Notes under the pieces: model-generated
Databases searched by the model: none
Seen by the model: only the letters and a program-made list of their open reading frames with translations
Told to the model about the DNA's origin: nothing
Made by a program: the position numbers and the translations under genes
DNA from: a virus
Virus record (IMG/VR): IMGVR_UViG_3300044857_000472
Direction: 5' to 3' (one strand)
Length of the DNA stretch: 64,000 bases
Shown: piece after piece, positions 49,013-64,000 of the stretch
How the letters are laid out: each line of letters begins with the position of its first letter
Position numbering within the stretch: position 1 is the first letter of the stretch

Positions 49013-49043
49013 TATAAATTTCCTTTAAGTTTTTAAAAGAATA

Positions 49044-49056
49044 CTAAATTCTTGTT
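49044..49056 (-). promoter_or_regulatory. Late-type promoter AACA-N6-TAG
   Basis: AACA-AGAATT-TAG upstream of 49012. Confidence 0.6.
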
Positions 49057-49099
49057 TATTTTTGTAAACTTTTTACCGGATCATATAAAATTTACAAAA

Positions 49100-49127
49100 A
49101 AAAAAGAGTAGCGAACTACTCTTTTTT
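49100..49127 (-). terminator. Terminator closing the small-ORF array
   Basis: AAAAAAGAGTAG-cgaa-CTACTCTTTTTT (UUCG loop on minus). Confidence 0.85.
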
Positions 49128-49385
49128 CAGTGTTTGTTTTAAATCTATTACAGCTCCACTATCGCTTATAATAGCTAATACAACGCTTACTCTTAACCTA
49201 GAAATCCTTACTGACCTATTGATTGAAAAGCTTTTAATAATTAGTTTAAAGTCAGTACTATTCATAAGTTCTGACATTAGATTTATAAGGAATCCTAAAT
49301 TGAATACTTTGTTTCTTAGACCACTAAGCATTACTTGGTCGTTTAGTATGTATTTTCTATTTTGTCTCTGATAATGTATATGCAT
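49116..49385 (-). CDS. Array small protein
   Basis: 89 aa, starts MHIHYQ. Confidence 0.6.
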   Translation of the reverse strand: MHIHYQRQNRKYILNDQVMLSGLRNKVFNLGFLINLMSELMNSTDFKLIIKSFSINRSVRISRLRVSVVLAIISDSGAVIDLKQTLKKE

Positions 49386-49409
49386 TATTAGTTCTCAGAA
49401 ATATAATAT

Positions 49410-49649
49410 TTAATGGTCATCTATAAAGATGAATCTTGAGTCTAATGGAGAAAATTTATCATAGAATTCAGAATATGGATTTTTTCTTGTAGTTAGCATC
49501 ATCTTTTTAGGAGGAAGGAAAGAACGCATAACTTTGATACAGTCATTAACTAAATATCTTAAAGTAGGGCGATAATAACCGGATTTATCACATTTCGATT
49601 TATAATTTAATCGCACTACTTCTAATTTAGATTTTACTATTATTTTCAT
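49410..49649 (-). CDS. Array small protein
   Basis: 79 aa, starts MKIIVK. Confidence 0.65.
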   Translation of the reverse strand: MKIIVKSKLEVVRLNYKSKCDKSGYYRPTLRYLVNDCIKVMRSFLPPKKMMLTTRKNPYSEFYDKFSPLDSRFIFIDDH

Positions 49650-49984
49650 AGATTAATGGTTAATGAAAGACTTTGATCAATACGATAGCTTTTAACTTTT
49701 TTAACTGGATTTTCAGAGAAGAAAATTCCATCTAGAAACATTTCAGCAAGTTGGGAAGATTCCGTTTCTTTCCTGCCAAATACGATATAGTCTGAAATAT
49801 GTTTTCTAGTAAAATCAAGGCTCTCAGAACCTAATTCTTTATAGAAATCGGTTTCAGTATAGTCTTTCTTAGATTCTTTTTTAATATTATTATAACATTC
49901 ATTGAACATTTGAGAAATAGAAAGATACCCTCCAATGAGTGATCGGACAGATTCTTTTTTAACCATTTTATTGCGAATTTTCAT
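49646..49984 (-). CDS. Array small protein
   Basis: 112 aa, starts MKIRNK. Confidence 0.65.
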   Translation of the reverse strand: MKIRNKMVKKESVRSLIGGYLSISQMFNECYNNIKKESKKDYTETDFYKELGSESLDFTRKHISDYIVFGRKETESSQLAEMFLDGIFFSENPVKKVKSYRIDQSLSLTINL

Positions 49985-50208
49985 TATTGGATGCCACCAT
50001 ATGGAGTATATAAGAGAAAAAGCGTGTTTACATATTCTTCAGAAAACCCTACATAATGTCTAGAGAATTCACGGTTTAATACCGAAGGAGTTCTTAATCT
50101 TTTAAATTTATTACGAGTTTTGTCTACATATACTATCAAGTCTATATATTCAGAGATAAATGTATGGACTGTTACTAGAGTATGAAACCGACATTTATTT
50201 ATTTTCAT
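49984..50208 (-). CDS. Array small protein
   Basis: 74 aa, starts MKINKC. Confidence 0.65.
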   Translation of the reverse strand: MKINKCRFHTLVTVHTFISEYIDLIVYVDKTRNKFKRLRTPSVLNREFSRHYVGFSEEYVNTLFLLYTPYGGIQ

Positions 50209-50458
50209 AGTATAATTTTAAAACTAAGCATGTAAATGATGTATCTGATACTAAGCAGTCTCTCCATATTTTCATAAATATATCAATATTTGAATCTGTT
50301 AGCCTTAGATCAAATGCTTTTCTACCTATACATGAACTAGCAACTACATCAGAACTTACACAAATTTTTGGAAGATCTCTAAATATAGTTTCTACTAGTT
50401 CGTTAGTTTCCATAAGTCTGAAAACTGACATCCTAACAGACCTGCTAAGTATTTGCAT
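50195..50458 (-). CDS. Array small protein
   Basis: Likely start MQILSR at 50458 after AAAGGT (track start 50509). Confidence 0.55.
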   Translation of the reverse strand: MQILSRSVRMSVFRLMETNELVETIFRDLPKICVSSDVVASSCIGRKAFDLRLTDSNIDIFMKIWRDCLVSDTSFTCLVLKLYYENK

Positions 50459-50708
50459 AATAGAAATGTACCTTTGGTAATTCATTAGGAATAAAAGGTA
50501 ATTCATCAATTATTATAAACGATTTATTACTTACTCCCCTTCCAAAAGCTTTAGATACCATTGTTAATCCTTGCATGATTGGAGAAATATCTATGATAGG
50601 TGTAACGGATATCATTTCTTTACGCAATTCTACTGAATCAATCAGATATGCTAAATCATTAACAATATCCTTCAGATCCATTTGCTCTTCATTTTTGATT
50701 ATTTTCAT
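50445..50708 (-). CDS. Array small protein
   Basis: 87 aa, starts MKIIKN. Confidence 0.65.
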   Translation of the reverse strand: MKIIKNEEQMDLKDIVNDLAYLIDSVELRKEMISVTPIIDISPIMQGLTMVSKAFGRGVSNKSFIIIDELPFIPNELPKVHFYYANT

Positions 50709-51052
50709 ATATTAAACTTTAGTTCTGTTATGAAGGATTCTAATTTAACAAAGGAGGTAATTCGACAGGGATATAATAAACTTACATCAGTATCCATCAT
50801 CATACGTCTTACGGAAGCCGGTAAAGTGCTACCTCCCCTACCAAAGTTCTGTGTCCATGAAAGTTTATCAATATTAAACTCTATATCTATTTTTATAGTA
50901 GTACCTAGATAAACGTCTTTACTATAAAGCTCTTTCATGTTTGGTGGGAAAAGACGCTGAATACTTGATTCAACACTCTTTCTTTCTTTAGCTAATTTAA
51001 TGTACTCTCTTTTTGAGATATAAGAATTAATATTACCTTTAATTACTTTCAT
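50705..51052 (-). CDS. Array small protein
   Basis: 115 aa, starts MKVIKG. Confidence 0.65.
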   Translation of the reverse strand: MKVIKGNINSYISKREYIKLAKERKSVESSIQRLFPPNMKELYSKDVYLGTTIKIDIEFNIDKLSWTQNFGRGGSTLPASVRRMMMDTDVSLLYPCRITSFVKLESFITELKFNI

Positions 51053-51287
51053 TTTTTCCTATTTCCGTATTATCAATTTCTATAAAATAAATCCCATCAG
51101 TTTTTATAAAGTAATTTATATCATTACTTCCTTTATTGAAAGCTGATGTATTATCAAATTCCATATGAACTGTTAGATTTACTATACGATTAATTTGTCG
51201 AATAGTACGGTCTAGATACTTTTCACAAACTACCATTTTTCTGTGAAAATTAAGATTGTCAAAGTTGGAAACTTGTAGATGAAACAT
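51039..51287 (-). CDS. Array small protein
   Basis: 82 aa, starts MFHLQV. Confidence 0.6.
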   Translation of the reverse strand: MFHLQVSNFDNLNFHRKMVVCEKYLDRTIRQINRIVNLTVHMEFDNTSAFNKGSNDINYFIKTDGIYFIEIDNTEIGKNESN

Positions 51288-51568
51288 TATAATCTCGCTA
51301 GTTTTTCAAAGTTATTATCCACTTTATATACAATTTTAACCCTATGATCAAAAATTTTATCTTTGACATTCCTAGTACCTATGAATGGAACAAAGTTAAT
51401 ATTTCCTACACTAAGAATAGTAGTTTTAACATCATTAACTTCGTAAGTAATAGTAACAATATCAGGAAATAGATAATCCTCTAAATACCACGGAAGAGAA
51501 ATACTTTTTATAAACGCTTCCAGCATATGATTAGATCTAAATTTTATCTTAACCATGAATATATCCAT
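51287..51568 (-). CDS. Array small protein
   Basis: 93 aa, starts MDIFMVKIK. Confidence 0.6.
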   Translation of the reverse strand: MDIFMVKIKFRSNHMLEAFIKSISLPWYLEDYLFPDIVTITYEVNDVKTTILSVGNINFVPFIGTRNVKDKIFDHRVKIVYKVDNNFEKLARL

Positions 51569-51767
51569 ATTCTCTGAAAAATTTGATTGAGTTAGTTTCT
51601 AAATGTATTACATATTCATTATACATCCTTGTTTCAGAATACTCATCCCATTCCATTCTTATAAGAAACTTCTCCTCATTAGTAACTATTATCCCTCGAA
51701 TATAGTAAAATGGAAATGCATCATTAGGTTCCGCTCTAATTGCATTAGCTCTTTTAAAATGTCTCAT
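51549..51767 (-). CDS. Array small protein
   Basis: 72 aa, starts MRHFKR. Confidence 0.6.
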   Translation of the reverse strand: MRHFKRANAIRAEPNDAFPFYYIRGIIVTNEEKFLIRMEWDEYSETRMYNEYVIHLETNSIKFFREYGYIHG

Positions 51768-52156
51768 TTAATATCTGCTACCTTTATCTTTACAGAGACT
51801 CTAGTAGTGTAGAAATCCTTTTTAATTGGAGGTAATTCCAATGATACTGTTATTGGTAGGTGGAGATAATCTGTTGGTAGCGCATAATTAAAATCTATAT
51901 CGTCATCACCAGTTTCATATTGTGCTTCTACTACAATATAATCAGGTGAATTCTTTATATTATTACAACAAGCATGAGACAGAAAGAAGGTAGAAAATAG
52001 TTCAGCGGGGAAGGGTTTAGTTTCGTCACGTTCTCTAGGATTTACACGCTTTATTCCATTATTAGTTAATACATCATGACTAAAACATTTTACCGATATC
52101 ATTTTATAACTAGTTTTTTCACGACCATCATTATTATTAAATTTTACTATTTTCAC
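51764..52156 (-). CDS. Array small protein
   Basis: 130 aa, starts MKIVKF. Confidence 0.65.
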   Translation of the reverse strand: MKIVKFNNNDGREKTSYKMISVKCFSHDVLTNNGIKRVNPRERDETKPFPAELFSTFFLSHACCNNIKNSPDYIVVEAQYETGDDDIDFNYALPTDYLHLPITVSLELPPIKKDFYTTRVSVKIKVADIK

Positions 52157-52535
52157 CTTTTATCTCCATAATTGACTTTATAATAGGCGCAGAAAAATTT
52201 ATAGTTTCATTATAATTACTAAAAGTAACTTTATGCTTAGGAAGGTTACTCTCTACTACAAAATTATGCTCTTTTATTAGGTCATAATCATTCCTATGAA
52301 GGTGCCTAAATACAGCTGATTTAGAGGTTAACATTTTATTTATCCTTCCAAAATCCTTACAATTTACAACTTCTATGGTTATATTTCCTTTAAAACATAC
52401 ACTTTTAGTAATATCTTGAAGCTTTCTTAATTGAAAATTTCTAGCTTCTTTAGAACTGAGTCCAGTAGACAAAGAAATTTTGTTAATTAGCATTGACATT
52501 CCATCAGTACTAGTATGTTTCTTAAATATTTTCAT
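52137..52535 (-). CDS. Array small protein
   Basis: 132 aa, starts MKIFKK. Confidence 0.65.
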   Translation of the reverse strand: MKIFKKHTSTDGMSMLINKISLSTGLSSKEARNFQLRKLQDITKSVCFKGNITIEVVNCKDFGRINKMLTSKSAVFRHLHRNDYDLIKEHNFVVESNLPKHKVTFSNYNETINFSAPIIKSIMEIKGENSKI

Positions 52536-52807
52536 AGTATATCTTTCTTATTAACGAATCTTATTGGAAAAACAACGCTATTCATTACTAAGGCGAAAGG
52601 ATCTTCTTCATCTAATTCAAAATAGACAAATGAATTATACTCATAAACTGAATCAAATCCTTGAGATGGGCTAATTACAAGCGTTTTAAAATCTTTTTCC
52701 ATATAGTTCACTAAAGACCTTATATATTCTTGGTCTTTAGTACGCCCTTCTTTCTCTAGATAGATTCTAATACTCTCCCAATCTTCATCAAGAATAGTTA
52801 TCTTCAT
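52532..52807 (-). CDS. Array small protein
   Basis: 91 aa, starts MKITIL. Confidence 0.65.
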   Translation of the reverse strand: MKITILDEDWESIRIYLEKEGRTKDQEYIRSLVNYMEKDFKTLVISPSQGFDSVYEYNSFVYFELDEEDPFALVMNSVVFPIRFVNKKDIL

Positions 52808-52813
52808 AGGATA

Positions 52814-53329
52814 TCACTTAATTATGTAAATATGGTGTTTAATAGTTTTAGGTAAAGACTCGTTAATCAGATTTACGGCTTTTATAGAAGGAAGCAAATC
52901 TTTATATTTCTTATTATCTACAATTTCTCCTAGATTAGGACTAGGTACTTTAAAATCTCTAATAGGTTTATTACGCATCTTAAGATAACTTGAGCTTTCA
53001 GCATAATAACTCATAAAAGGCGACAATTGAGATTGATGTGCATAATAGCTCATTACATCTCCATCAAAATCAACTCCCATCGCGCTATTATATACATAAT
53101 CATACTTGTTTACACTTAGATCAGTGAATGGTATGTTATCTATTAGAAAATGTACTTTCTCAGTAGTGTAAGTATGCAACATAAGAGGATTTATAAATAA
53201 GCAAACTTCTCTAAAATCTCTAAGCTTATTTTCTCGTTCAATCATTATATCCATCAATCGTGATGGTAGAAAGAACATTTGTTTCTTTACAGAAGGGAAT
53301 AATTTCTTTGGAAGCTTAGCTACGATCAT
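52814..53329 (-). CDS. Array protein with RNAP beta'-like DFDGD motif
   Basis: 171 aa; LFINPLMLHTY ... MGVDFDGDVMSYY. Confidence 0.6.
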   Translation of the reverse strand: MIVAKLPKKLFPSVKKQMFFLPSRLMDIMIERENKLRDFREVCLFINPLMLHTYTTEKVHFLIDNIPFTDLSVNKYDYVYNSAMGVDFDGDVMSYYAHQSQLSPFMSYYAESSSYLKMRNKPIRDFKVPSPNLGEIVDNKKYKDLLPSIKAVNLINESLPKTIKHHIYIIK

Positions 53330-53658
53330 TACATATGTCCTTTTATTTTCAGTAAATCAACCCAATGAAATTTCATTCCAGTGAATTGTAAAAAGATTGA
53401 ATATTCCCCACTTATCCCTATATTTAACATATTGTCAAATGCAGCTGATGAAGATTTTGCTATAGGGGTCTTAAAATTTTTAGATGCTAATTGGAGCCTA
53501 ACTGTATTCACGAATATAGAGTTCATACTGAAATTAGAACGCATTAATTCATAATTACTAGTATGATTATCCTGTCTATATAGAGCAAATATATGCGCCA
53601 TATCAACTTTTTTAAATATATTGCTTTTTCGCTTAGTAAAACGTTTGTGTATTTTCAT
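53329..53658 (-). CDS. Array small protein
   Basis: 109 aa, starts MKIHKR. Confidence 0.65.
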   Translation of the reverse strand: MKIHKRFTKRKSNIFKKVDMAHIFALYRQDNHTSNYELMRSNFSMNSIFVNTVRLQLASKNFKTPIAKSSSAAFDNMLNIGISGEYSIFLQFTGMKFHWVDLLKIKGHM

Positions 53659-53659
53659 A

Positions 53660-53908
53660 CTATCCTTTATGATACTTATAACAACGGTTTCTATTCTTTT
53701 TACTCACAAAATACAATATTTCAGGAGTGGTATCTATTGTACCTTTACTAGCAATTTTAGATGAGCTTAGTATCAATATATGAGTAGCTATTTTATTGAT
53801 GAGGCTATACATGAAATCATTATAGATGGACTTATAAATTCTATAGATATGGCTACCCGCTGGATCTAGCCCAAGATTATTAGTATACTCTCTTTCATAT
53901 ATCTTCAT
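53660..53908 (-). CDS. Array small protein
   Basis: GGAGG SD 8 nt before ATG 53908; starts MKIYER (track start 53923). Confidence 0.65.
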   Translation of the reverse strand: MKIYEREYTNNLGLDPAGSHIYRIYKSIYNDFMYSLINKIATHILILSSSKIASKGTIDTTPEILYFVSKKNRNRCYKYHKG

Positions 53909-53927
53909 TTGATAATCCTCCATTATA

Positions 53928-53937
53928 ATAATATATC
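53928..53937 (-). promoter_or_regulatory. Early-type promoter motif inside the array
   Basis: GATATATTAT on minus. Confidence 0.6.
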
Positions 53938-53952
53938 AATAAAAAAAGAGTA

Positions 53953-53971
53953 GGTTCCTTTTTGAGGAACC
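53953..53971 (-). terminator. Terminator inside the array
   Basis: GGTTCCT-ttttg-AGGAACC with an A-run on plus. Confidence 0.6.
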
Positions 53972-53978
53972 ATATCTT

Positions 53979-54245
53979 TTACTTAAGGGATGATAAATTT
54001 ATACTAACGTAGTCTTCAACTTCAATATATTCACTATAATCCTTCTCGATACAAAAGATAGGTGCTGGAAGGGTCTTTAATTCACTAAAAATTTCAAGAT
54101 CTACCACCTCTACTATAATTAATACCGCATCCAATATAGTTCTTATAGATAGCCATCTAATTTCTAAATTTATTCTAAATATATCATATCTTAATCTTGC
54201 TGGATCAACATTTAAGTGATTTTTATGGAATTTACAAGTTCTCAT
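53979..54245 (-). CDS. Array small protein
   Basis: 88 aa, starts MRTCKF. Confidence 0.6.
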   Translation of the reverse strand: MRTCKFHKNHLNVDPARLRYDIFRINLEIRWLSIRTILDAVLIIVEVVDLEIFSELKTLPAPIFCIEKDYSEYIEVEDYVSINLSSLK

Positions 54246-54505
54246 TTAGTAAATCCTATTCTAATTAAACCATGTTTCTTATAAGAAACATTCTTTTCAA
54301 AATAAAATCTTGGATCTGCTGTTTCAAGTTCATTATTTATACCGTGAATAATGAAAAGAAATTCACTTCCTTTTAATACATCATTTATGTGGCTTGATTT
54401 GCATAAATTTTCTTCTTTATTATCATGAATTCCTACTATAGTACAAGTGTTTCTATAGAAATCTACATATTCGGCTGGAACCTGATCAAGTTTTATTTTG
54501 TACAT
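54242..54505 (-). CDS. Array small protein
   Basis: 87 aa, starts MYKIKL. Confidence 0.6.
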   Translation of the reverse strand: MYKIKLDQVPAEYVDFYRNTCTIVGIHDNKEENLCKSSHINDVLKGSEFLFIIHGINNELETADPRFYFEKNVSYKKHGLIRIGFTK

Positions 54506-54707
54506 TATAAAGACTCTTAAAAGTGATTCTCATGATATGATAATTTCTTGCAACGTAATATCTCTTTCCTATATAGATTATACTTTCTAGATATTCATTA
54601 TCTTTTTCAAGCATTCCTGAGAGATTATGAGTAGTTGCAAGTCTTACTACATTTTTAGTAGTAAAGTCATCTTCTTTTATATGTGATGGATATTCTACTC
54701 TAAACAT
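54486..54707 (-). CDS. Array small protein
   Basis: 73 aa, starts MFRVEY. Confidence 0.6.
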   Translation of the reverse strand: MFRVEYPSHIKEDDFTTKNVVRLATTHNLSGMLEKDNEYLESIIYIGKRYYVARNYHIMRITFKSLYNVQNKT

Positions 54708-54933
54708 CCTTAATTTCCTTTACATACATTTTTATCGTAGTTCTAGTAGAACCGTAGGAATCCGGTCGTTTAAGTAAGCATATTGCTTCCGGTAGACCAT
54801 TCACCAAAACTCTAATACTGCCTACAATTCTATACACATCATCAATATCAAAAGGTAAGCTAGTAGAGCTATGCATATTATCTTTAAAGAAATCTGATGC
54901 AATATGCATTAGACTAAATTTTGAGTGTCGCAT
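54700..54933 (-). CDS. Array small protein
   Basis: 77 aa, starts MRHSKF. Confidence 0.6.
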   Translation of the reverse strand: MRHSKFSLMHIASDFFKDNMHSSTSLPFDIDDVYRIVGSIRVLVNGLPEAICLLKRPDSYGSTRTTIKMYVKEIKDV

Positions 54934-55147
54934 TTAAAAGTCCCTTATTCAGCATGTTAAAAATTTCTTTTTCACTAAAATCAATAACAAATCTATCATA
55001 TTCTAAGTAAATCATATTTTTAAAGCCGAAAACCATATCAGAACTTGTAATATAATGAATTTGAGTTCTTAGTTCTGGTAGGTTCATTGAATCGGCTGCA
55101 GCAAAATCATTAGCAAAGTAGGAAAAAAGTTTCTTATACTTCTTCAT
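54914..55147 (-). CDS. Array small protein
   Basis: 77 aa, starts MKKYKK. Confidence 0.6.
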   Translation of the reverse strand: MKKYKKLFSYFANDFAAADSMNLPELRTQIHYITSSDMVFGFKNMIYLEYDRFVIDFSEKEIFNMLNKGLLNATLKI

Positions 55148-55356
55148 AGATATTTCCTATCTTTATATACTTCTCTAGCTCCTAAAACTAGTGGAATCGT
55201 ATAACTACTAAGATACAAACATGGATGAATAACGCCTTGATGATCATTTACCAATTGCAAAATTACATTATAACTTTTAAGTATCACTCCATTACGTATT
55301 GAATAATCTTTATCTATTTTTAAATTACTACGTTTGTTTTTCTTGTAACGTTCCAT
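55144..55356 (-). CDS. Array small protein
   Basis: 70 aa, starts MERYKK. Confidence 0.55.
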   Translation of the reverse strand: MERYKKNKRSNLKIDKDYSIRNGVILKSYNVILQLVNDHQGVIHPCLYLSSYTIPLVLGAREVYKDRKYL

Positions 55357-56420: not shown

Positions 56421-56432
56421 AGGTACCTCAAG

Positions 56433-57674: not shown

Positions 57675-57900
57675 CGTAAATATCCCATGTGAATATACAG
57701 GCATTTCTAAGTCTATGCCATTTATACCTTGCAGCAATGTTTATCAATTGCATATCCATTAGAACGTGTCTGAGACTATTCTCATGCATGCATTCTTTAG
57801 TAAGTCTCAAGTTATGAATAAAATTCTCATTATCTGATAAGAAATGCTTATGGCTTGGTACTTGTTTAATCTTTATATTGGTTACTTTGATATGTTTCAT
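57622..57900 (-). CDS. Array small protein
   Basis: 92 aa, starts MKHIKV. Confidence 0.6.
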   Translation of the reverse strand: MKHIKVTNIKIKQVPSHKHFLSDNENFIHNLRLTKECMHENSLRHVLMDMQLINIAARYKWHRLRNACIFTWDIYDVQGKTGYKISSRPNYY

Positions 57901-58088
57901 AAGCTGGAGATCTTATAGTTATAGATATTCATAGCTATATTACTAGCATAATATAGTTTTACAAATTTTACATTACTAAATTCTGAAAAATATGATTTAA
58001 CAATGAATTCTGTATGAATAACCTTTCTAAGAGGTGCTTCTATTGGGTCTGTATACAGATAACTAGTTTTACATAGATATCGCATCAT
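57897..58088 (-). CDS. Array small protein
   Basis: 63 aa, starts MMRYLC. Confidence 0.55.
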   Translation of the reverse strand: MMRYLCKTSYLYTDPIEAPLRKVIHTEFIVKSYFSEFSNVKFVKLYYASNIAMNIYNYKISSL

Positions 58089-58128
58089 ATCAGTGATTAC
58101 CTTCTCTTATTTTCGAGATTCTACAAAA

Positions 58129-58138
58129 ATAATATATG
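58129..58138 (-). promoter_or_regulatory. Early-type promoter motif inside the array
   Basis: CATATATTAT on minus. Confidence 0.55.
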
Positions 58139-58146
58139 CTTAGAAT

Positions 58147-58347
58147 TCATTTAAAGACAACCTTATCATAAATTATAACATCGGTAATTTCCCAATGCTT
58201 TATAGAAAAATAAAATCTCCCTTGGTCTGGAAGGGAGATCCCACCAATAGCTTTCCTCCTAACACTATCTAGGAATGAGCTATACATATTAGGTGGAAAA
58301 ATTATCTGTCTAGCTTGTTTAGCCATAGATAATCTAATTGTTTTCAT
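58147..58347 (-). CDS. Array small protein
   Basis: 66 aa, starts MKTIRL. Confidence 0.6.
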   Translation of the reverse strand: MKTIRLSMAKQARQIIFPPNMYSSFLDSVRRKAIGGISLPDQGRFYFSIKHWEITDVIIYDKVVFK

Positions 58348-58349
58348 AG

Positions 58350-58583
58350 CTATTTCCTTACGCTTCCTGAATTAAAGCGTTTATGATTAATTGGATAGCT
58401 TACGTTAAAGATTATAAAAGAGAAAGCAATATTTTTATTATCAAAATTTATGTAAACCAAGTCTCTTTCTAATCCTCTTGATTTATTAAATTCTCTATAT
58501 ATGTTTTTTATAGATTTTAGATATTTTGTACGTGATCGCTTTTCAGGATCAGGGATGTAGTTTGACACTTTATAGTAGAACAC
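58350..58583 (-). CDS. Array small protein
   Basis: 77 aa, starts MFYYKV. Confidence 0.55.
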   Translation of the reverse strand: MFYYKVSNYIPDPEKRSRTKYLKSIKNIYREFNKSRGLERDLVYINFDNKNIAFSFIIFNVSYPINHKRFNSGSVRK

Positions 58584-58939
58584 TTAAGCTCCTTTGGTCT
58601 AATCCATGATGAATTTTCTTCATAATTTAATCGGACTGAGAACTGATATTCCTCTCCAATGTATTCTCTCATGAATACACTACCTTCTCCTTTCAATATA
58701 TTTCTTCTTAAAAAGGTATTAGCTTTTTCAAATCCTCTTTCTACTACCTTACGATAATTTGTCAAAGAATCCTTTTGTCTTTCGATTGCTCTTTCTAACT
58801 GAGCATAAATAAAATTATTGGGAGAAAGGTCATTCATCATCTCCTCCAATCTAGCCAGATTTCTTAATCTATCCTCTAACACTCCCTGATATTGTGTATT
58901 ACCATAACTGTTTAAAGCCTCTACCTTAATAAATTTCAT
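58517..58939 (-). CDS. Array protein
   Basis: 140 aa, starts MKFIKV. Confidence 0.6.
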   Translation of the reverse strand: MKFIKVEALNSYGNTQYQGVLEDRLRNLARLEEMMNDLSPNNFIYAQLERAIERQKDSLTNYRKVVERGFEKANTFLRRNILKGEGSVFMREYIGEEYQFSVRLNYEENSSWIRPKELKCSTIKCQTTSLILKSDHVQNI

Positions 58940-58955
58940 AAAGTCTTCCTAAAAA

Positions 58956-59174
58956 TTATATTCTTTGCTTAAATAGATTCTGAGAGATTAGATTTGACCA
59001 CATTGCTCCATTTCTTCCTTCAAAATGAAGTCTAACCATCGAATTTGTTAAATCTAAATCTATTTTCTTTAATTCCATATATACTTTATTTTGAAAATTT
59101 GTTCTAAGGTCTGGATAAGATACAGACCTTAAGGCTTTACCCCTATAAAAACCAACTGAGCTTTGGATTTTCAT
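58956..59174 (-). CDS. Array small protein
   Basis: 72 aa, starts MKIQSS. Confidence 0.65.
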   Translation of the reverse strand: MKIQSSVGFYRGKALRSVSYPDLRTNFQNKVYMELKKIDLDLTNSMVRLHFEGRNGAMWSNLISQNLFKQRI

Positions 59175-59400
59175 TATATTTAATCTTTGTCCTTATGAGC
59201 ATGGCATATGGTCTTTCGAATTTTTTGATAATATGTAAATCGTAATCCATTACTCTGAATTCTGAGTCCTCTTCAAATATTCTATATAGTCTATAAATAT
59301 TTACATCATGCACTTTAATCTGCATCTTTAATGAGCTATGAGGAATGTAATAAGTGGTTACTGAATGGCATGAATTATACTTTTTCTTATAAATAAACAT
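59143..59400 (-). CDS. Array small protein
   Basis: Likely start MFIYKK at 59400, 1 nt after the upstream stop (track start 59484). Confidence 0.6.
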   Translation of the reverse strand: MFIYKKKYNSCHSVTTYYIPHSSLKMQIKVHDVNIYRLYRIFEEDSEFRVMDYDLHIIKKFERPYAMLIRTKIKYNENPKLSWFL

Positions 59401-59401
59401 A

Positions 59402-59686
59402 TTATTTCGCCATATTATGAGAATTCCATAGGTTTTTGATTGAAATTTTACCTCTTTTGAAACTTTTTTTAAAAGATAAATCAATTACAATATATGGTTT
59501 AGCAACTCTTGGATTCTTTTTAGTACCATATGTATCGTTGAATCTATCTTCTCTTGTAAACTTCATATCACATCTAATATGAAGCATACTATTAACTAAT
59601 TCAAATTGCTCTCTAGTATAATAGGGTAAGAGAGCTTCTCTACTTAGATTAAACCATCTTGGGTTGGTAGCTGATAGTATCTTCAT
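59402..59686 (-). CDS. Array small protein
   Basis: 94 aa, starts MKILSA. Confidence 0.65.
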   Translation of the reverse strand: MKILSATNPRWFNLSREALLPYYTREQFELVNSMLHIRCDMKFTREDRFNDTYGTKKNPRVAKPYIVIDLSFKKSFKRGKISIKNLWNSHNMAK

Positions 59687-59687
59687 A

Positions 59688-59909
59688 TTAATATGGTAAC
59701 TTAAATTTTAAGGTAATGGGAGATAGCATTCTATAGATACGGTTGTTAGCAGTTTCTACAAGTGCTTCTACAATTAATAGCGATGAACTTTTACTATAAA
59801 ATTCAAAAAGGTTTCCACCATTTAACTGTAATTCGTGAAATGCAAGATCTTGCATCCATTTTGAATTCTTACGAATTACAGATTCTGTTTTAGTTTTGAA
59901 AATCATCAT
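59688..59909 (-). CDS. Array small protein
   Basis: 73 aa, starts MMIFKT. Confidence 0.6.
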   Translation of the reverse strand: MMIFKTKTESVIRKNSKWMQDLAFHELQLNGGNLFEFYSKSSSLLIVEALVETANNRIYRMLSPITLKFKLPY

Positions 59910-60134
59910 TTAATCGACCTTAATATTATTAATATCCTTAGTGTCTATCCATAGAGAATACTTAGACTTCGATTGTTTACCAGTATCTTCTAATGAAAAG
60001 GTTAGTTCAGTAGTAGCAAATAAACCATTGTAGTTATTGAATGATTTCTCTTCAAGGAAGGTCACTTCACCCCATGACCTAGACCAAGAGATTAATTTAG
60101 AAACTCCTATTACATCACTTCGTAGTTTTCTCAT
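59910..60134 (-). CDS. Array small protein
   Basis: 74 aa, starts MRKLRS. Confidence 0.6.
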   Translation of the reverse strand: MRKLRSDVIGVSKLISWSRSWGEVTFLEEKSFNNYNGLFATTELTFSLEDTGKQSKSKYSLWIDTKDINNIKVD

Positions 60135-60173
60135 TTACTGATCGATTATCCATGTAGATATGCTTTTTGGAGG

Positions 60174-60431
60174 TTAAATTGGAGTATATTCATTTACAAC
60201 TTCTACTTTTACACCAAAAAGTGGTCTAATGGTATGAATAGGATGTTTAACAAATTTAAATTCGACCTTTACTTGATCTAGGTCTATTTCACAATAAACA
60301 TCAAAATACAATTTGTATACATATAAAGTTAATTTATCATAGAGATTATTAATGTATATGTCTCTTACTATTAATGGATTAGATTTACGCTTAAAATTTA
60401 TTTCATTTTTATTAGTTTTGGAAATAAACAT
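60174..60431 (-). CDS. Array small protein
   Basis: 85 aa, starts MFISKT. Confidence 0.6.
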   Translation of the reverse strand: MFISKTNKNEINFKRKSNPLIVRDIYINNLYDKLTLYVYKLYFDVYCEIDLDQVKVEFKFVKHPIHTIRPLFGVKVEVVNEYTPI

Positions 60432-60673
60432 TACAGAATCCTTGTTTCTGAATCAACAGCGAATTTCCTTACAACGGGTTCTTTAGAAATTCGTTGTTGA
60501 TGATAATTAATGAATCTATTACATATACGGATAGCAGTAAGATTATCTTGTGCAATTATACCTACAGCTTTATAAGGACTTCCCATTAGATGGTCAGCCC
60601 TTAAATCTTCATCATCACGTTCAGATAAGGCTCTAAATAATCTTACATCTCTTGAAATACTTATAATTTTCAT
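60431..60673 (-). CDS. Array small protein
   Basis: 80 aa, starts MKIISI. Confidence 0.65.
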   Translation of the reverse strand: MKIISISRDVRLFRALSERDDEDLRADHLMGSPYKAVGIIAQDNLTAIRICNRFINYHQQRISKEPVVRKFAVDSETRIL

Positions 60674-60930
60674 ATGATCCTACGAGTTTCATTATCAACG
60701 ATTTCCATAAAAGGTCTATATTTGGATATAGATGATTTATTAGGATAGTTAAAATCTACGTTATATCCACATAGAAATAATATATACGTGTTTATATCAT
60801 TAGATTCATCAAATTTTATATCAGATATCGTATCTTCCAACTCAAAGATCATTAAAGATCTAGCGTGTAAGTAATATTCAATTATTGCATTAGCTAGCAT
60901 AGTTTGTTTACGAGCTTTATGCTTAATCAT
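60670..60930 (-). CDS. Array small protein
   Basis: 86 aa, starts MIKHKA. Confidence 0.6.
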   Translation of the reverse strand: MIKHKARKQTMLANAIIEYYLHARSLMIFELEDTISDIKFDESNDINTYILFLCGYNVDFNYPNKSSISKYRPFMEIVDNETRRII

Positions 60931-61208
60931 TTAATTTCCTTAAATGAATTCCATATTTTTGATTTATCAATCTTTGGTATGGCTAACTTCATAAACTTAT
61001 ATTTAACCTTTTGCGGCACCTTAACCAACCTAAAAATAGCACCTGGAGCTACTTCAAAGATAATATATGCTGGATCAATATACGCTGAAGATTTACTGAC
61101 CTTCCATTTATAAAGGATTGATCTAATATCTGTAAATGTATCCATAGCCGTCTTAGAATGACTTTCATCAGAATACTTATTACCGTCATATATCTGAATA
61201 GCTTTCAC
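60927..61208 (-). CDS. Array small protein
   Basis: 93 aa, starts MKAIQI. Confidence 0.6.
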   Translation of the reverse strand: MKAIQIYDGNKYSDESHSKTAMDTFTDIRSILYKWKVSKSSAYIDPAYIIFEVAPGAIFRLVKVPQKVKYKFMKLAIPKIDKSKIWNSFKEIK

Positions 61209-61447
61209 TTACACCTCTTAATAAAATGATAATTGAACCGAATAAGCTTATAATAAGCAGTTCCACCAATTTTCATAGTACGAGAATAATATATAAAAGG
61301 TGGGTCAATAAGATTATATGCAGACGCCCCTTCCACTATTTGCTTTAATTCTTTATAATGATTGTTAAGTAGGGTACTAAATACTGATTTAGCTATGGTT
61401 GGAACTCTGGTAATAGAAATTACTCTAAGTCTTTTATGAATTTTCAT
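61205..61447 (-). CDS. Array small protein
   Basis: 80 aa, starts MKIHKR. Confidence 0.65.
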   Translation of the reverse strand: MKIHKRLRVISITRVPTIAKSVFSTLLNNHYKELKQIVEGASAYNLIDPPFIYYSRTMKIGGTAYYKLIRFNYHFIKRCK

Positions 61448-61695
61448 AAATAATACCTTGAATTTATAGCATTAATAATATTTATCATATGAACTTCAAC
61501 AATTTCTTTACGAAAAGTTCTTTTCCCTCTCTGGATTAGATGAATTTCATATGCTAACTCTCTAGTCAGATTGCAATTGTATTCATATATAAATATAGCT
61601 AAGGAAGCTCTCACACGCTCTAGAATGAGAGAACCATAATTTGGTAGATTACTTACACCCTTATTAGTATTTCTTCTACCTTTATTAATTTTCAT
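61444..61695 (-). CDS. Array small protein
   Basis: 83 aa, starts MKINKG. Confidence 0.65.
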   Translation of the reverse strand: MKINKGRRNTNKGVSNLPNYGSLILERVRASLAIFIYEYNCNLTRELAYEIHLIQRGKRTFRKEIVEVHMINIINAINSRYYL

Positions 61696-61697
61696 GC

Positions 61698-61931
61698 TTA
61701 CCTCGGATTAATCAAGAAATTCTTCCTGAATTCTAAATGTACTACTTCCCTATCACCCCATCCACCATTAATCTTTTCTACTATATAAAAAGCAAACATA
61801 CATAGTGGAGCATAACTCATCTCAAACAGATCAATTATATTCTCTAGGTCAGATAGATTAACAGTATAAGTCGTAACCATAGTAAATTCAGTATTTGGTA
61901 TGCTATGCTTTAAACCTTTACGTATTTTCAT
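61698..61931 (-). CDS. Array small protein
   Basis: 77 aa, starts MKIRKG. Confidence 0.65.
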   Translation of the reverse strand: MKIRKGLKHSIPNTEFTMVTTYTVNLSDLENIIDLFEMSYAPLCMFAFYIVEKINGGWGDREVVHLEFRKNFLINPR

Positions 61932-62127
61932 TAGAAAACGCTCTTTTTCCTTTAAATTTTATATGTACATTGTGATTCTCATTGATTTTGATAATAGATG
62001 AGAATACTCCTTCACTCTTAATGAATCTGGAGACACTGGCATAAGATGCGTTCTTATCAAAGAAAACTCCGGCACTTATTACCATGTATGATGGTAATAG
62101 AAAACTAGGATATTTATTAATCTTCAT
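61918..62127 (-). CDS. Array small protein
   Basis: 69 aa, starts MKINKY. Confidence 0.65.
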   Translation of the reverse strand: MKINKYPSFLLPSYMVISAGVFFDKNASYASVSRFIKSEGVFSSIIKINENHNVHIKFKGKRAFSNENT

Positions 62128-62429
62128 GAGTGTATACTCGCAATTAAGAAAAGTTTAACTCTCATAGTCATATTATAATTAACGTCTCTAACTGGTGAGT
62201 CACACTCTTCATACAAATCCCAGAAATCAATTAATTCTGAATCAAATGTTGTAGGGATTACAGTAATCTCTCCAATATGACCACTAACCGGAAAGTTCTC
62301 CACAATCAATACACCCTCAGCAAAGGTCTCAAACTTCTTTTGAAGTATCTGTATTTGTATTGGAAGTATTTTATATAAGAATTTTAAATTTGACGAGTTA
62401 TTATCAAAGCGCATAGAGATTCTGAGCAT
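62124..62429 (-). CDS. Array small protein
   Basis: 101 aa, starts MLRISM. Confidence 0.6.
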   Translation of the reverse strand: MLRISMRFDNNSSNLKFLYKILPIQIQILQKKFETFAEGVLIVENFPVSGHIGEITVIPTTFDSELIDFWDLYEECDSPVRDVNYNMTMRVKLFLIASIHS

Positions 62430-62497
62430 ACTATTAAATTTTCCTTTATCTTCGTATTAATATTACTATATACTTCCCTATTATTAATCCCTCTCCC

Positions 62498-62920
62498 CTA
62501 GTAATCTACGTAGTACTCAATAGTTTGGAGTTTTATATAATTTAAGGAAGATTGAGAATCATTAGAATTTGTATATCGTCTATTATACATATTCCATTTT
62601 TCAATAATGCTAGTTCCATTAGTTACGTACTCGTATTCATCCTCATCACATTCGTCTTCATCTAGGGAGATAGTATCTCCATCGTTATCTTTTATGAAGA
62701 CGTGGTATTTATCAAAGATAGGAGATACTTTTAGTTCGTCCATAATAGTTGAAGGTAAGTGGGCTAGGTTAAAGAACTCTGTTAACCCTACTTCTCTACT
62801 AATAGTTTCTGAATCTACTAGCTTGAGGATATCCATATTGAGCATGTATATAGCTTTACGCTCTAGGGGTGAGTTATTTTCATTAGCAAGAATGAGTTGG
62901 ATGGATTTTATGTTCACCAT
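62498..62920 (-). CDS. Array protein with acidic patch
   Basis: 140 aa, starts MVNIKS; contains LDEDECDEDEYE. Confidence 0.6.
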   Translation of the reverse strand: MVNIKSIQLILANENNSPLERKAIYMLNMDILKLVDSETISREVGLTEFFNLAHLPSTIMDELKVSPIFDKYHVFIKDNDGDTISLDEDECDEDEYEYVTNGTSIIEKWNMYNRRYTNSNDSQSSLNYIKLQTIEYYVDY

Positions 62921-63195
62921 TGATCCTTATGACAGAAGTATAAAATAGTACCATTGTTCTTACCATATTCCGCTTCGGACTTGTATAAGGTTAATGGAAT
63001 TATTTGAGAACGATTGTTAAAGATGAGTACTGGTAAACGATAACGATCTCCTATACGTATATTGGCTGCGTCTATAGCATCCATTAAAGTATTCTGGTTG
63101 AAACGTTTCTTGAACTCGTATATACTTCTAAAATTACTAATTCTTTTATTAGTACGAACCGGGATACGAGAATACTCTATCTGTTGTATTTTCAT
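62914..63195 (-). CDS. Array small protein
   Basis: 93 aa, starts MKIQQI. Confidence 0.65.
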   Translation of the reverse strand: MKIQQIEYSRIPVRTNKRISNFRSIYEFKKRFNQNTLMDAIDAANIRIGDRYRLPVLIFNNRSQIIPLTLYKSEAEYGKNNGTILYFCHKDQW

Positions 63196-63401
63196 TATTT
63201 ACTCTTAAACCTTATTAGAATAGGTTCTATGTAATTATTAGGCTCCATTATAGGGTCAATTTGTTCTACTTGAGTTTCTATCCATGAGGAACTAAGCGTT
63301 TCTCCAATAAATACGTTTAAGCTTGATTTATTAAATGGAGAAAGGAATCGTGGATATGGACATGTGTTACTTATACTAAATCTAACTATTTTCATTTTCA
63401 T
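63195..63401 (-). CDS. Array small protein
   Basis: 68 aa, starts MKMKIV. Confidence 0.6.
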   Translation of the reverse strand: MKMKIVRFSISNTCPYPRFLSPFNKSSLNVFIGETLSSSWIETQVEQIDPIMEPNNYIEPILIRFKSK

Positions 63402-63639
63402 ACCTCAGATATATTGCTTGAGGTTTATAGATTCCAAATGGTAAAAGATGACCGTCATCTGCTTTAGGCCAAGTTTTAGGTAAACCGTAGTGATCTATAT
63501 AAATATCTTTGAGAGAATCTTCAACAGTAGTTGTTAGATTATAATCTGAAACGATATCTCTCATGAAGAAGTTCTTTAGATACTCTCTATGTATTGGTAG
63601 AAAGAAAGGCGAATCCTTTTCTCTAACAGTTATGAACAT
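63382..63639 (-). CDS. Array small protein
   Basis: 85 aa, starts MFITVR. Confidence 0.6.
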   Translation of the reverse strand: MFITVREKDSPFFLPIHREYLKNFFMRDIVSDYNLTTTVEDSLKDIYIDHYGLPKTWPKADDGHLLPFGIYKPQAIYLRYENENS

Positions 63640-63653
63640 GGAATACCCCTATT

Positions 63654-63926
63654 TTATAAATACTCATCCTCATCAGTCTCTACATTTAATACAACTTGTA
63701 GATCTCCATCAGACCAAACGCGTGCATATAGAACATTACTTACATTAAAGAATTCTAATGTTTTAGTAATGTCAGCCATCCTTAAATCTCTTAAAATAGT
63801 TAGTATTTCATAATGAATATCGTTAATGACCTCTTCTCTTCCTTTATCAGCAGAAATCCTGATTTTTAAGCTTTTAAGGTATCTTTCTACTCTATTTTCA
63901 ATATGTGCGTATACTATTTTCATCAT
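63654..63926 (-). CDS. Array small protein
   Basis: 90 aa, starts MMKIVY. Confidence 0.65.
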   Translation of the reverse strand: MMKIVYAHIENRVERYLKSLKIRISADKGREEVINDIHYEILTILRDLRMADITKTLEFFNVSNVLYARVWSDGDLQVVLNVETDEDEYL

Positions 63927-64000
63927 TTACTCGCTATTATTTTAACTAAAAGATCATCTCTTATAGAATTATGATTAAAATCTAATTTAAATATAGGTCT
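63923..64000 (-). CDS. 3' end of a further array ORF (partial)
   Basis: Open frame RPIFKLDFNHNSIRDDLLVKIIASK-stop; its TGA overlaps the ATG at 63926. Confidence 0.55.
   Translation of the reverse strand, partial: RPIFKLDFNHNSIRDDLLVKIIASK

What the first reader, a model, noticed from the sequence alone, without database searches (positions are those of the whole stretch)
49116..64000. 15-kb array of at least 56 translationally coupled small ORFs with a shared MKI-x-K N-terminus
Seen: 56 complete ORFs of 63-171 aa plus one partial ORF, all on the minus strand, mostly overlapping or abutting. 19 start exactly MKI, 3 more do so from a nearby Met, and 3 start MKV; many others are close variants (MHIH, MYIH, MFIS, MMIF, MVIL). 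Outside the array only the 44235-45293 cluster starts MKI. Many members end in an alternating hydrophobic strand followed by basic residues (SLSLTINL, RVSVKIKV, LIRIGFTK, ITLKFKLPY, VVHLEFRK, VHIKFKGKR, ILIRFKSK), while the middles share almost nothing. Inference: a hyper-diverged paralog library with a common small alpha/beta scaffold, or unrelated proteins carrying a common N-terminal targeting or translation signal. It may be an early-expressed arsenal of host-takeover or anti-defence effectors. Caveat: ATGA overlaps force an A-starting second codon and AT-richness favours Lys and Ile, which explains part but probably not all of the motif.
Basis: partly seen in the sequence, partly recalled or inferred. 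Interest (0 to 1): 0.85.

Follow-up and report, generated by a model that had tools for sequence, protein, structure and literature searches.

The report
Jumbo-phage early-gene array, shared MKI start
This is the fast-evolving early-gene region of a relative of Yersinia jumbo phage phiR1-37: about 55 small, mostly unrelated genes that nonetheless share a real N-terminal Met-Lys-Ile-x-Lys signature, most likely a translation-start device rather than evidence of common descent.

Summary
Window 49116-63926 holds 55-56 packed minus-strand ORFs, and 43 of 54 junctions overlap or lie within 15 nt.

- **Identity.** The array is gene-by-gene collinear with phiR1-37 g346-g044. Of the 74 genes in the phiR1-37 array, 60 are classed EARLY by published RNA-seq. 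AR9-type early promoters (ATATATTAT-N6) and terminators punctuate the window array.
- **Evolution.** Flanking genes are about 91% identical to phiR1-37 in protein; array orthologs are about 31-37%. pN/pS is 0.25-0.28 in closer pairs, against 0.02-0.06 for the neighbouring virion gene. So these are real genes under weak constraint. Genes are gained and lost as single-gene cassettes.
- **N-terminal motif.** MKI occurs in 35/126 array genes against 11/334 others (p=4e-13). ATGA overlaps and composition do not explain it, and it recurs in four clades.
- **No shared ancestry detected.** 290 array proteins fall into 87 families. Profile-profile scores equal those of reversed decoys.
- **C-terminal "strand plus basic" pattern.** It occurs at chance level.
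- **Structure.** AlphaFold failed (pLDDT 29 and 47), so a shared fold remains untested.

Best reading: an early host-takeover-type region whose members converge on a K-I translational ramp. One member (52814-53329) carries an invariant beta'-like D[FY]DGD motif.

The parts
49116..63926 (-). Array of 55-56 small early-type genes (54-171 aa, median 83). It is collinear with phiR1-37 g044 back to g346 and runs on beyond the window end.
   Evidence: purifying selection
63927..64000 (-). 3' end of a further upstream array ORF, cut by the window end.
   Evidence: phiR1-37 has g338-g345 upstream
53921..53936 (-). AR9/phiR1-37-type early (virion RNAP) promoter, ATATATTAT-TATAAT-G. It is orthologous to the annotated, RNA-seq-verified promoter before phiR1-37 g029. 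It places the true start of the next gene at 53908 (MKIYERE).
   Evidence: consensus AAATATATATTAT-N6-G from PMC5312081
53953..53971 (-). Intrinsic terminator (GGTTCC-loop-GGAACC plus a T run) ending the upstream early operon. It is conserved with the phiR1-37 g028 terminator.
58129..58137 (-). Second early promoter core (CATATATTAT) in the 58-nt gap before gene 57897-58088. It is the ortholog of the phiR1-37 promoter before g011.
49100..49127 (-). Bidirectional terminator hairpin that closes the array, before the virion gene 47906-49012.
47906..49012 (-). Conserved flank: ortholog of phiR1-37 virion protein g045 (96% aa identity, pN/pS 0.02). It was used as the anchor to find related arrays.
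52814..53329 (-). Largest and best-conserved member (171 aa, = g031). It carries invariant P-[IL]-ML-x-TY and D[FY]DGD motifs, resembling the RNA polymerase beta' catalytic loop.
56750..57240 (-). Tandem paralog pair (56750-57001 and 56998-57240, 35% identity). It is the only BLAST-detectable duplication inside the window array.
61698..62127 (-). Two adjacent members (= g358, g357) of a small tandem subfamily. The subfamily shares a terminal F-[RKD]-K-N-[FW]-L-x-N-x motif.
61444..61695 (-). Single-gene cassette (MKINKG..., 83 aa) that is precisely absent from related strains. It is bounded by the direct repeat ATGAAAATT formed by two gene starts.

Best explanation
The region is the early-gene ('host-takeover-type') region of a phiR1-37-like, deoxyuridine-DNA jumbo phage recovered from bioreactor sludge. 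I put the identity of the region at about 0.9 and the translational reading of the motif at about 0.5.

Shown:
- About 55 small, mostly basic, soluble ORFan proteins are encoded head to tail.
- Terminators at 53953-53971 and 49100-49127, together with two ATATATTAT-N6 promoter sites, divide them into a few long units.
- In the relative AR9 this promoter type is read by the virion-packaged RNA polymerase without new protein synthesis.
- Most orthologs in phiR1-37 are measured as early transcripts.
- The genes are real and under weak purifying selection, about 5-10 times faster than neighbouring virion genes.
- The gene set turns over by single-gene or multi-gene cassette gain, loss and replacement, with boundaries at gene junctions.
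- At sequence level the members are unrelated to each other (87 families), apart from a few tandem duplicates.

Inferred:
- Independently of ancestry, the members converge on the N-terminus M-K-I-(hydrophobic or His)-K. I read this as selection on translation start and early elongation.
- A Lys-Ile (K|N-I|Y) dipeptide and an A-rich stretch just after AUG gave the highest protein yield in an E. coli reporter library.
- Such a ramp would let weak-SD, coupled early cistrons compete with host mRNA in the first minutes of infection.
- As a side effect, the shared ATGAAAAT(H) start offers microhomology for cassette deletion and insertion.
- Individual functions (host shut-off, anti-defence) are inferred from position and timing only.
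For: Identity and synteny:
- A virion protein is 98% identical to phiR1-37 g085, and the flank is 84% identical in DNA.
- Array ORFs match g044...g346 in strict order. The order is also kept in a third and a fourth clade (L022, L026).

Early expression:
- 35 of 44 genes in g001-g044 and 25 of 30 in g338-g367 are EARLY in Table S2 of PMC4848604. That is 60 of the 92 early genes of the phage.
- The annotated physical left end of the genome lies in g352.
- Promoter cores sit at 53928 and 58129 and terminators at 53953 and 49100. The AR9 early consensus and its chloramphenicol independence come from PMC5312081.

Real genes evolving fast:
- Window against L024: pooled pN/pS 0.25, and all 38 genes are below 0.65.
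- L021 against phiR1-37: median 0.28, against 0.06 for g045.
- Window against phiR1-37: array pN 0.43 against 0.065 in the flanks, at a similar near-saturated pS.

Cassette turnover:
- L021 lacks g016-g030, g035-g043 and other genes.
- 14 of 22 similarity breakpoints lie within 35 nt of a gene start (random mean 6.0, P=0.0004).
- Gene 61444-61695 is precisely absent from related strains and is flanked by ATGAAAATT repeats.

No common ancestry detected.

Motif:
- It recurs in L022 (17/53), L023/L024 (10-11 of 37-38) and L026 (6/24).
- It is as frequent in lineage-specific families as in core families (24% against 34%).
- The A fraction of codons 2-6 is 0.47 against 0.40 (p=5e-7). SD pairing is weaker in the array (-4.0 against -5.1 kcal/mol, p=0.02).
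- Verma 2019 (PMC6920384) found K|N-I|Y and 'KIH' at the start to be the best-expressing motifs in more than 250,000 E. coli reporters, whatever the synonymous codon. MKIHK itself occurs three times in the window.
Against: - Highly transcribed non-array genes of the same phage do not use the motif (N-termini, expression levels).
- Small non-array genes lack it too (8/121). It is therefore not a general high-expression device in this phage.
- Within the phiR1-37 array the motif does not correlate with early mRNA level (p=0.85).
- Predicted local mRNA structure around the start is the same in array and non-array genes (p=0.57).
- Synonymous sites in codons 2-6 show no extra A/T selection (GC3 0.208 against 0.228, p=0.26; AAA share 0.77 against 0.70, p=0.09). 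Selection therefore acts on the amino acids or on codon positions 1-2, which equally fits a protein-level role.
- In Verma's reporters the motif sat at codons 3-5, not 2-3.
- No translation data exist for this phage or for phiR1-37. The metatranscriptome contig that covers part of the array cannot prove transcription.
- Breakpoints inferred from BLAST segment ends are biased towards the better-conserved gene junctions.
Confidence: 0.6

Rival explanations
1. All members descend from one small ancestral gene by repeated tandem duplication. The N-terminal MKIxK, as the first beta-strand of a common small alpha/beta fold, is the last surviving trace, because the rest has diverged beyond recognition.
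For: - Tandem duplication does happen here: 56750/56998, the g355/g363, g006/g359 and g027 families, and the g356-g359 plus g007 C-terminal-motif subfamily.
- Divergence is fast enough to erase paralogy, since orthologs in sister phages are already at about 31% identity.
- The low-confidence model of 52532-52807 puts residues 2-5 and 79-85 in strands.
- N-terminal positions 2-6 are somewhat better conserved between orthologs than the middle (38-49% against 32%).
Against: - 703 and 1081 profile-profile comparisons give score distributions identical to reversed decoys (maximum 20.5 against 20.8).
- Lengths range from 54 to 171 aa.
- The C-terminal strand pattern is at chance.
- Within families the N-terminus wanders around the consensus (MRHFK / MKIYK / MKIFR). 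That looks like selection towards a consensus rather than inheritance.
- The same motif occurs in a separate mini-array on the other strand (44235-45972).
Confidence: 0.15
2. The N-terminal pentapeptide is a protein-level tag read by a host or phage factor. Candidates are a degron that limits early proteins to the first minutes (ClpXP or Lon type), a handle for a chaperone or partner, or a determinant of Met/fMet retention.
For: - Selection is at the amino-acid level and not at synonymous sites.
- Position 2 is almost never a small residue, so the initiator Met should be retained. In non-array genes S and A are the commonest residues at position 2.
- The motif is restricted to the early or accessory gene class.
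- From general knowledge, one class of N-terminal ClpX recognition signal begins Met-basic-hydrophobic.
Against: - No experimental link exists.
- There is no hydrophobic h-region for secretion or membrane targeting (3 of 56 proteins with a weak TM-like segment).
- This phage group lacks chimallin, so nuclear import is not needed.
- The motif is fuzzy and absent from about 40% of members, including conserved ones.
Confidence: 0.12
3. The shared start AUG-AAA-AUH-NNN-AAA is an RNA or DNA element. It could be an operator for a RegA-like translational repressor that shuts off early cistrons together. It could also be maintained as recombination microhomology that mobilises gene cassettes.
For: - The motif is limited to one temporal and positional gene class.
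- A gene-sized indel is bounded by ATGAAAATT repeats.
- Indel and replacement boundaries cluster at gene starts.
- T4 RegA is known to bind A/U-rich initiation regions of many early mRNAs (general knowledge).
Against: - There is no nucleotide conservation upstream of the start beyond the SD.
- Third codon positions vary as in gene bodies: ATA/ATT/ATC 25/21/10 against 405/391/135.
- Nine bases are short for directed recombination.
- No RegA homolog was looked for or found.
Confidence: 0.08
4. The motif is a by-product of AT-rich composition, ATGA overlaps and ORF-calling choices.
For: - Genome GC is about 30%.
- A at the fourth CDS position is enriched in nearly all bacteria (PMC5850271, listed).
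- ATGA overlaps force an A-starting second codon.
Against: - The expected MKI frequency from composition is about 0.7%, against 28-35% observed.
- The enrichment holds in non-overlapping genes, under three start-calling rules, against small non-array genes of the same genome, and in four clades.
Confidence: 0.02

Closest known systems
Early region g338-g367 plus g001-g044 of Yersinia phage phiR1-37 (AJ972879.2)
   Same: - It is the direct positional ortholog, with the same gene order and the same flank (g045).
- The promoter and terminator between g028 and g029 are the same.
- It shows the same N-terminal bias (18/71 MKI).
- It is annotated as hypothetical CDS and mostly classed EARLY by RNA-seq.
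   Different: - Median protein identity is only about 31-37%, against about 91% outside the array.
- About 10 genes are gained, lost or replaced.
- As far as I could find, the N-terminal motif and the concentration of early genes in this block were not pointed out. The RNA-seq paper states that it saw no link between gene location and expression class.
Early genes of AR9 / phiKZ-related jumbo phages, transcribed by the injected virion RNA polymerase
   Same: - The promoter core is the same (AAATATATATTAT-N6-G in AR9).
- Early genes are mostly small ORFans (76% without predicted function in AR9).
- The phages carry multisubunit phage RNAPs and uracil-DNA.
   Different: - AR9 early genes are scattered behind 41 promoters, rather than packed into one block of about 19 kb with few promoters.
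- No protein homology to the array members was detected.
SPO1 host-takeover module, T5 pre-early region, and T4 hyperplastic regions with PeSL cassettes
   Same: - They are clusters of small, tightly packed early genes near a genome end.
- They show rapid turnover between relatives, dispensable accessory content and cassette-like exchange at gene boundaries.
   Different: - There is no homology.
- Those regions use host RNA polymerase promoters.
- In T4, exchange is mediated by promoter-stem-loop repeats and not by a shared coding start.
- I know of no shared N-terminal peptide reported for them (from memory, not tested here).
K|N-I|Y 'short translational ramp' motif (Verma et al. 2019, PMC6920384)
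   Same: - Lys-Ile, and variants such as Lys-Ile-His, directly after the start gave the highest yields in E. coli.
- The effect was largely independent of synonymous codon and of mRNA folding, which matches the pattern seen here.
   Different: - It was defined at codons 3-5 of synthetic reporters. Here it sits at codons 2-3 with a further Lys at codon 5.
- No natural gene class was reported to carry it.

Membership tests
phiR1-37-type early-gene array | Collinear orthology with phiR1-37 g338-g044, next to the g045 virion gene | tested here: met
   About 42-47 of the 56 window ORFs have their positional ortholog as best hit, in strict order. g045 is 96% identical.
phiR1-37-type early-gene array | AR9/phiR1-37 early promoter consensus (ATATATTAT-N6-purine) ahead of the operons | tested here: met
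   Sites at 53928-53936 and 58129-58137 lie in the two largest internal gaps. They are orthologous to the annotated phiR1-37 promoters.
phiR1-37-type early-gene array | Transcripts accumulate in the first minutes of infection | not testable with these tools
   This is shown only for the phiR1-37 orthologs (60 of 74 EARLY). The metatranscriptome contig is uninformative.
Multigene (paralogous) family with one fold | Detectable pairwise or profile similarity between members | tested here: not met
   There are 87 families among 290 proteins, and 4 of them contain paralogs. hhalign scores equal the decoys.
Multigene (paralogous) family with one fold | Shared three-dimensional fold | tested here: inconclusive
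   Two AlphaFold2 models had pLDDT 28.8 and 47.0. The Atlas models are equally poor.
Secretion or membrane-targeting signal peptide | Basic n-region followed by a hydrophobic h-region of about 10-15 residues | tested here: not met
   Only 3 of 56 proteins have a weak TM-like 19-mer (Kyte-Doolittle above 1.6). Median pI is 9.3.
K|N-I|Y translational ramp | Lys/Asn followed by Ile/Tyr within the first five codons, independent of synonymous codon | tested here: met
   Position 2 is K in 48% and position 3 is I in 44% of array genes. Codon choice matches that of gene bodies.
K|N-I|Y translational ramp | The motif raises protein yield | not testable with these tools
   This needs reporter assays.
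RNA polymerase beta' catalytic domain (PF00623), for member 52814-53329 only | Invariant [N]-A-D-F-D-G-D metal-binding loop in a double-psi barrel | tested here: inconclusive
   - D[FY]DGD is invariant in 6 sequences of 4 clades.
- Atlas features point to PF00623 (score 0.92, 10 of the 10 best named hits).
- hhalign to the phage's own beta'-like ORF gives probability 22%, E 1e-3.
- Pfam, PDB and a search of 1.8 billion proteins give no RNAP hit, and there is no usable model.

The most novel reading that the evidence does not exclude
M-K-I-x-K is a genuine class-specific peptide or RNA signal. It would mark about 60% of the early accessory proteins of this phage group for a common fate, such as timed degradation, coordinated translational shut-off, or recognition by one phage or host factor. 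Its DNA image would also serve as the junction at which gene cassettes are exchanged.
Probability: 0.15. Interest if true: 0.8.

Novelty: new member of a known kind. Interest (0 to 1): 0.45.

Why it matters
- **A usable marker.** Early regions of jumbo phages are the main reservoir of unknown host-takeover and anti-defence proteins. A simple sequence signature that marks this gene class would help gene calling and start-site choice. For example, it selects 53908 over 53923. It would also help prioritise candidates for screens.
- **A natural case of an engineered rule.** If the K-I start is a natural translational ramp, it would be a large natural data set for a rule so far derived from synthetic reporters: 87 independent families converging on it.
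- **A view of effector turnover.** The seven-genome comparison gives a clean picture of how such an arsenal evolves. About 33 core families are kept in order, pN/pS is about 0.25, and single-gene cassettes come and go at gene junctions.
- **A possible polymerase part.** The beta'-like DFDGD protein inside the array may be a missing part of the transcription machinery of these phages.

Tried and rejected
- **DNA searches.** Megablast of the array against 50,697 phage records found nothing. blastn found only the 83-nt terminator/promoter. Homology is visible only at protein level.
- **Family libraries.** Pfam and PHROGs scans of all 55 proteins gave no family, apart from one chance-level hit at E 0.006.
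- **Relatives in IMG/VR.** The scan returned only phiR1-37 itself.
- **Structure prediction.** AlphaFold2 on the 171-aa member (3 sequences) and on the 91-aa MKI member (5 sequences) gave pLDDT 28.8 and 47.0, which is unusable. I therefore ran no fold searches.
- **Wider protein searches for the DFDGD family.** The PDB profile search gave only noise. The 1.8-billion-protein HMM search found three members of the same family and no RNA polymerase.
- **ESM Atlas.** It gave no usable feature hit for 52532-52807.
- **C-terminal hypothesis.** I considered an SD-in-coding explanation for the basic C-termini. I dropped it because the C-terminal enrichment itself is not specific to the array.
- **Toxicity screens.** The published screens by the same laboratory did not cover phiR1-37.
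- **Sequencing reads.** Read laying on an RNA library could not show transcription, because only contigs were available and the flanks were equally covered.
- **Nuclear import.** I rejected an import-signal reading, because phiR1-37 lacks chimallin.

Full report
**What is there.** Between 49116 and 63926 the minus strand carries 56 ORFs of 63-171 aa by the mechanical list. My own overlap-resolved calls give 55 genes with a median of 83 aa. Of 54 junctions, 34 overlap (11 by ATGA, 6 by one base) and 9 have gaps of 15 nt or less. GC content is about 29-30%, like the rest of the window.

**Whose DNA it is.**
- A virion protein of the window is 98% identical to g085 of Yersinia jumbo phage phiR1-37.
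- Window 31040-49111 aligns to phiR1-37 11450-31244 at 84% DNA identity.
- The array itself has no megablast match. Its only blastn match is 83 nt, covering the terminator and promoter between g028 and g029.
- At protein level the array is collinear with the phiR1-37 block of small genes: 49116=g044, 49410=g043, and so on to 63654=g346.
- In phiR1-37 that block is g338-g367 plus g001-g044: 74 genes over about 19 kb. The annotated physical left end of the linear genome lies inside g352.
- The window DNA comes from a bioreactor-sludge metagenome.

**Expression.**
- Table S2 of the phiR1-37 RNA-seq study (PMC4848604) classes 35 of g001-g044 and 25 of g338-g367 as EARLY.
- That is 60 of the 92 early genes of the phage, in a block that holds 20% of its genes.
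- The two largest internal gaps of the window array carry the core ATATATTAT (53928-53936 and 58129-58137, minus strand). They are orthologous to promoters annotated and RNA-seq-verified in phiR1-37.
- The core matches the AR9 early consensus AAATATATATTAT-N6-G. In AR9, transcription from this promoter type does not need new protein synthesis and is attributed to the injected virion RNA polymerase (PMC5312081).
- Intrinsic terminators sit at 53953-53971 and 49100-49127.
- The predicted transcription start at about 53921 lies downstream of the ATG at 53923. The next gene therefore starts at 53908, as MKIYERE.

**Are they genes, and how do they evolve?** Searches with the flank protein and with the 171-aa member found five more arrays:
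- L021 is close to phiR1-37.
- L023 and L024 are close to the window.
- L022 is a third clade, on a 99-kb contig.
- L026 is a fourth clade.

| Comparison | Array genes | Reference gene(s) |
|---|---|---|
| Window vs L024 | pooled pN/pS 0.25; all 38 genes between 0.06 and 0.62, including genes without a phiR1-37 ortholog | - |
| L021 vs phiR1-37 | median dN/dS 0.28 | g045: 0.06 |
| Window vs phiR1-37 | pS 0.68 (saturated), pN 0.43, identity about 31-37% | flanks: pS about 0.52, pN 0.065, median 91% aa identity |

- The sharp drop in identity at 49012/49116 therefore reflects constraint that is 5-10 times weaker at a comparable depth of divergence. It need not mean a foreign insert.
- dS between L021 and phiR1-37 jumps from 0 to 1.27 from gene to gene. 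That pattern indicates allele exchange by recombination.
- Gene content is plastic. L021 lacks g016-g030, g035-g043 and others.
- 14 of 22 similarity breakpoints lie within 35 nt of a gene start (random mean 6.0, P=0.0004). One caveat applies: segment ends are drawn towards the better-conserved junctions.
- Contigs from a wastewater and a food metagenome are about 92% alike over 59797-63935. They lack exactly 61449-61696, which is one gene. That gene is flanked by the repeat ATGAAAATT formed by two gene starts.

**Are the members related to each other?**
- BLAST finds one paralog pair in the window, 56750/56998.
- phmmer clustering of 290 array proteins from six genomes gives 87 families.
- 33 families occur in all three clades and keep their order. 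Only 4 contain within-genome paralogs.
- hhalign all-versus-all, with the first six residues removed, was run on 47 ortholog-pair profiles and on 38 family profiles of 4-8 sequences. Both score distributions were indistinguishable from reversed decoys (99th percentile 16.8 against 17.0 and 17.3 against 16.6; maximum 20.5 against 20.8).
- A small tandem subfamily (g356-g359 and g007; window 61698 and 61918) shares a terminal F-[RKD]-K-N-[FW]-L-x-N motif. The motif is absent from 90,000 residues of non-array protein.
- No member hits Pfam or PHROGs.
- The proteins are mostly basic (median pI 9.3), and only 3 have a weak TM-like segment.

**The N-terminal motif.**
- MKI occurs in 35/126 array genes (window plus phiR1-37) against 11/334 other genes (p=4e-13). 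Against small non-array genes the count is 8/121 (p=9e-6).
- Position 2 is K in 48% of array genes against 10% elsewhere. Position 3 is I/V in 56% against 21%. Position 5 is K/R in 56% against 25%.
- Non-overlapping array genes are 10/43 MKI, against 5/260 for non-overlapping other genes. The ATGA overlap is therefore not the cause.
- The result holds under three start-calling rules.
- It also holds in L022 (17/53), L023/L024 (10/37 and 11/38) and L026 (6/24).
- It is about as frequent in lineage-specific families (24%) as in core families (34%).
- Within a family the N-terminus drifts around the consensus, for example MRHFK / MKIYK / MKIFR.
- Codon choice at K2, I3 and K5 mirrors gene bodies. 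GC3 of codons 2-6 is not lowered. There is no nucleotide conservation upstream beyond the SD. Selection is therefore on the residues, or on codon positions 1-2.
- In array genes the SD pairing is somewhat weaker (-4.0 against -5.1 kcal/mol, p=0.02) and codons 2-6 are more A-rich (0.47 against 0.40). Predicted local folding is the same.
- In a library of more than 250,000 E. coli reporters, the motifs most enriched among top expressers encoded K|N-Y|I. 'KIH' boosted unrelated proteins, whatever the synonymous codon or folding energy (PMC6920384).
- This is the best available precedent, so I favour a translational-ramp reading at about 0.5.
- Against it: highly transcribed non-array genes lack the motif, and it does not track early mRNA level (p=0.85).

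**The C-terminal claim.** The 'alternating strand then basic residues' pattern is at background frequency: 18% against 17% for interior windows and 17-20% for other genes. K/R-rich ends occur in 27% of array proteins against 28% of small non-array proteins.

**Structure.** The common-fold idea remains untested.

**A member with a functional lead.**
- The 171-aa protein at 52814-53329 (= g031) keeps P-[IL]-ML-x-TY and D[FY]DGD invariant in six sequences of four clades.
- Language-model features place it next to viral clusters carrying PF00623, the RNA polymerase Rpb1 domain 2 (score 0.92, 10 of the 10 best named hits).
- In the whole phiR1-37 genome only this protein and one 452-aa beta'-like ORF carry a beta'-type D[FY]DGD. 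Pfam finds only the latter.
- hhalign between the two gives probability 22%, E 1e-3.
- HMM searches of PDB and of 1.8 billion proteins give no polymerase hit.
- It may be a catalytic fragment of the early-made second polymerase. This is unproven.

**Verdict.**
- This is a real, ordinary-in-kind early-gene region of a phiR1-37-like jumbo phage.
- Its unusual feature is a statistically solid, class-specific N-terminal signature, which I did not find noted in the papers I read.
- The paralog-library and C-terminal-strand readings are not supported.
- The translation-signal reading is the most likely, but it has not been tested experimentally.

Noticed in passing
window 52814-53329 (-): This 171-aa array protein (= phiR1-37 g031) has an invariant beta'-like D[FY]DGD loop. 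Only one other ORF in phiR1-37 (195738-197096) carries such a loop, although the phage group is described as having two multisubunit RNAPs. Atlas features point to PF00623. HMM searches do not.
   Followed up: partly
window 44235-45972 (+): This is a second mini-array of five small genes. The phiR1-37 orthologs have N-termini of the same motif type (MKIVKT, MFIMQI, MKIYKI, MVIFKL, MVRIKY). Divergence is raised (58-76% aa identity, against 90% or more for neighbouring genes).
   Followed up: partly
window 24194-29957: This block of genes is nearly identical to phiR1-37 (pS 0.04-0.2). Neighbouring genes have pS 0.5-0.6. That suggests a recent recombination patch between the two phage lineages.
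   Followed up: no
window 30454-31050 (-), 42981-43280 (+): These non-array genes have no phiR1-37 counterpart in my BLAST table. They may be lineage-specific insertions outside the array.
   Followed up: no
window 58209-58245 (-): A 15-pair hairpin followed by a T run lies inside the coding sequence of gene 58147-58347, just upstream of the 58129 promoter. It may be an internal terminator or attenuator.
   Followed up: no
L019 (Proteus mirabilis assembly GCA_964210295.1, contig CAXOLO010000032.1): This contig holds a g045 homolog at 40% identity, next to PhoH, Acb1 (PF23474) and two GmrSD_N genes. It appears to be a more distant jumbo-phage relative inside a bacterial assembly.
   Followed up: no
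phiR1-37 Table S2 (PMC4848604): 60 of the 92 EARLY genes lie in the g338-g044 block. The paper states that it saw no clear association between genomic location and expression pattern.
   Followed up: yes
window 5372-7444 (-): This 690-aa protein has a reverse-transcriptase domain (PF00078, E 2.6e-10). It is 88% identical to its phiR1-37 ortholog.
   Followed up: no
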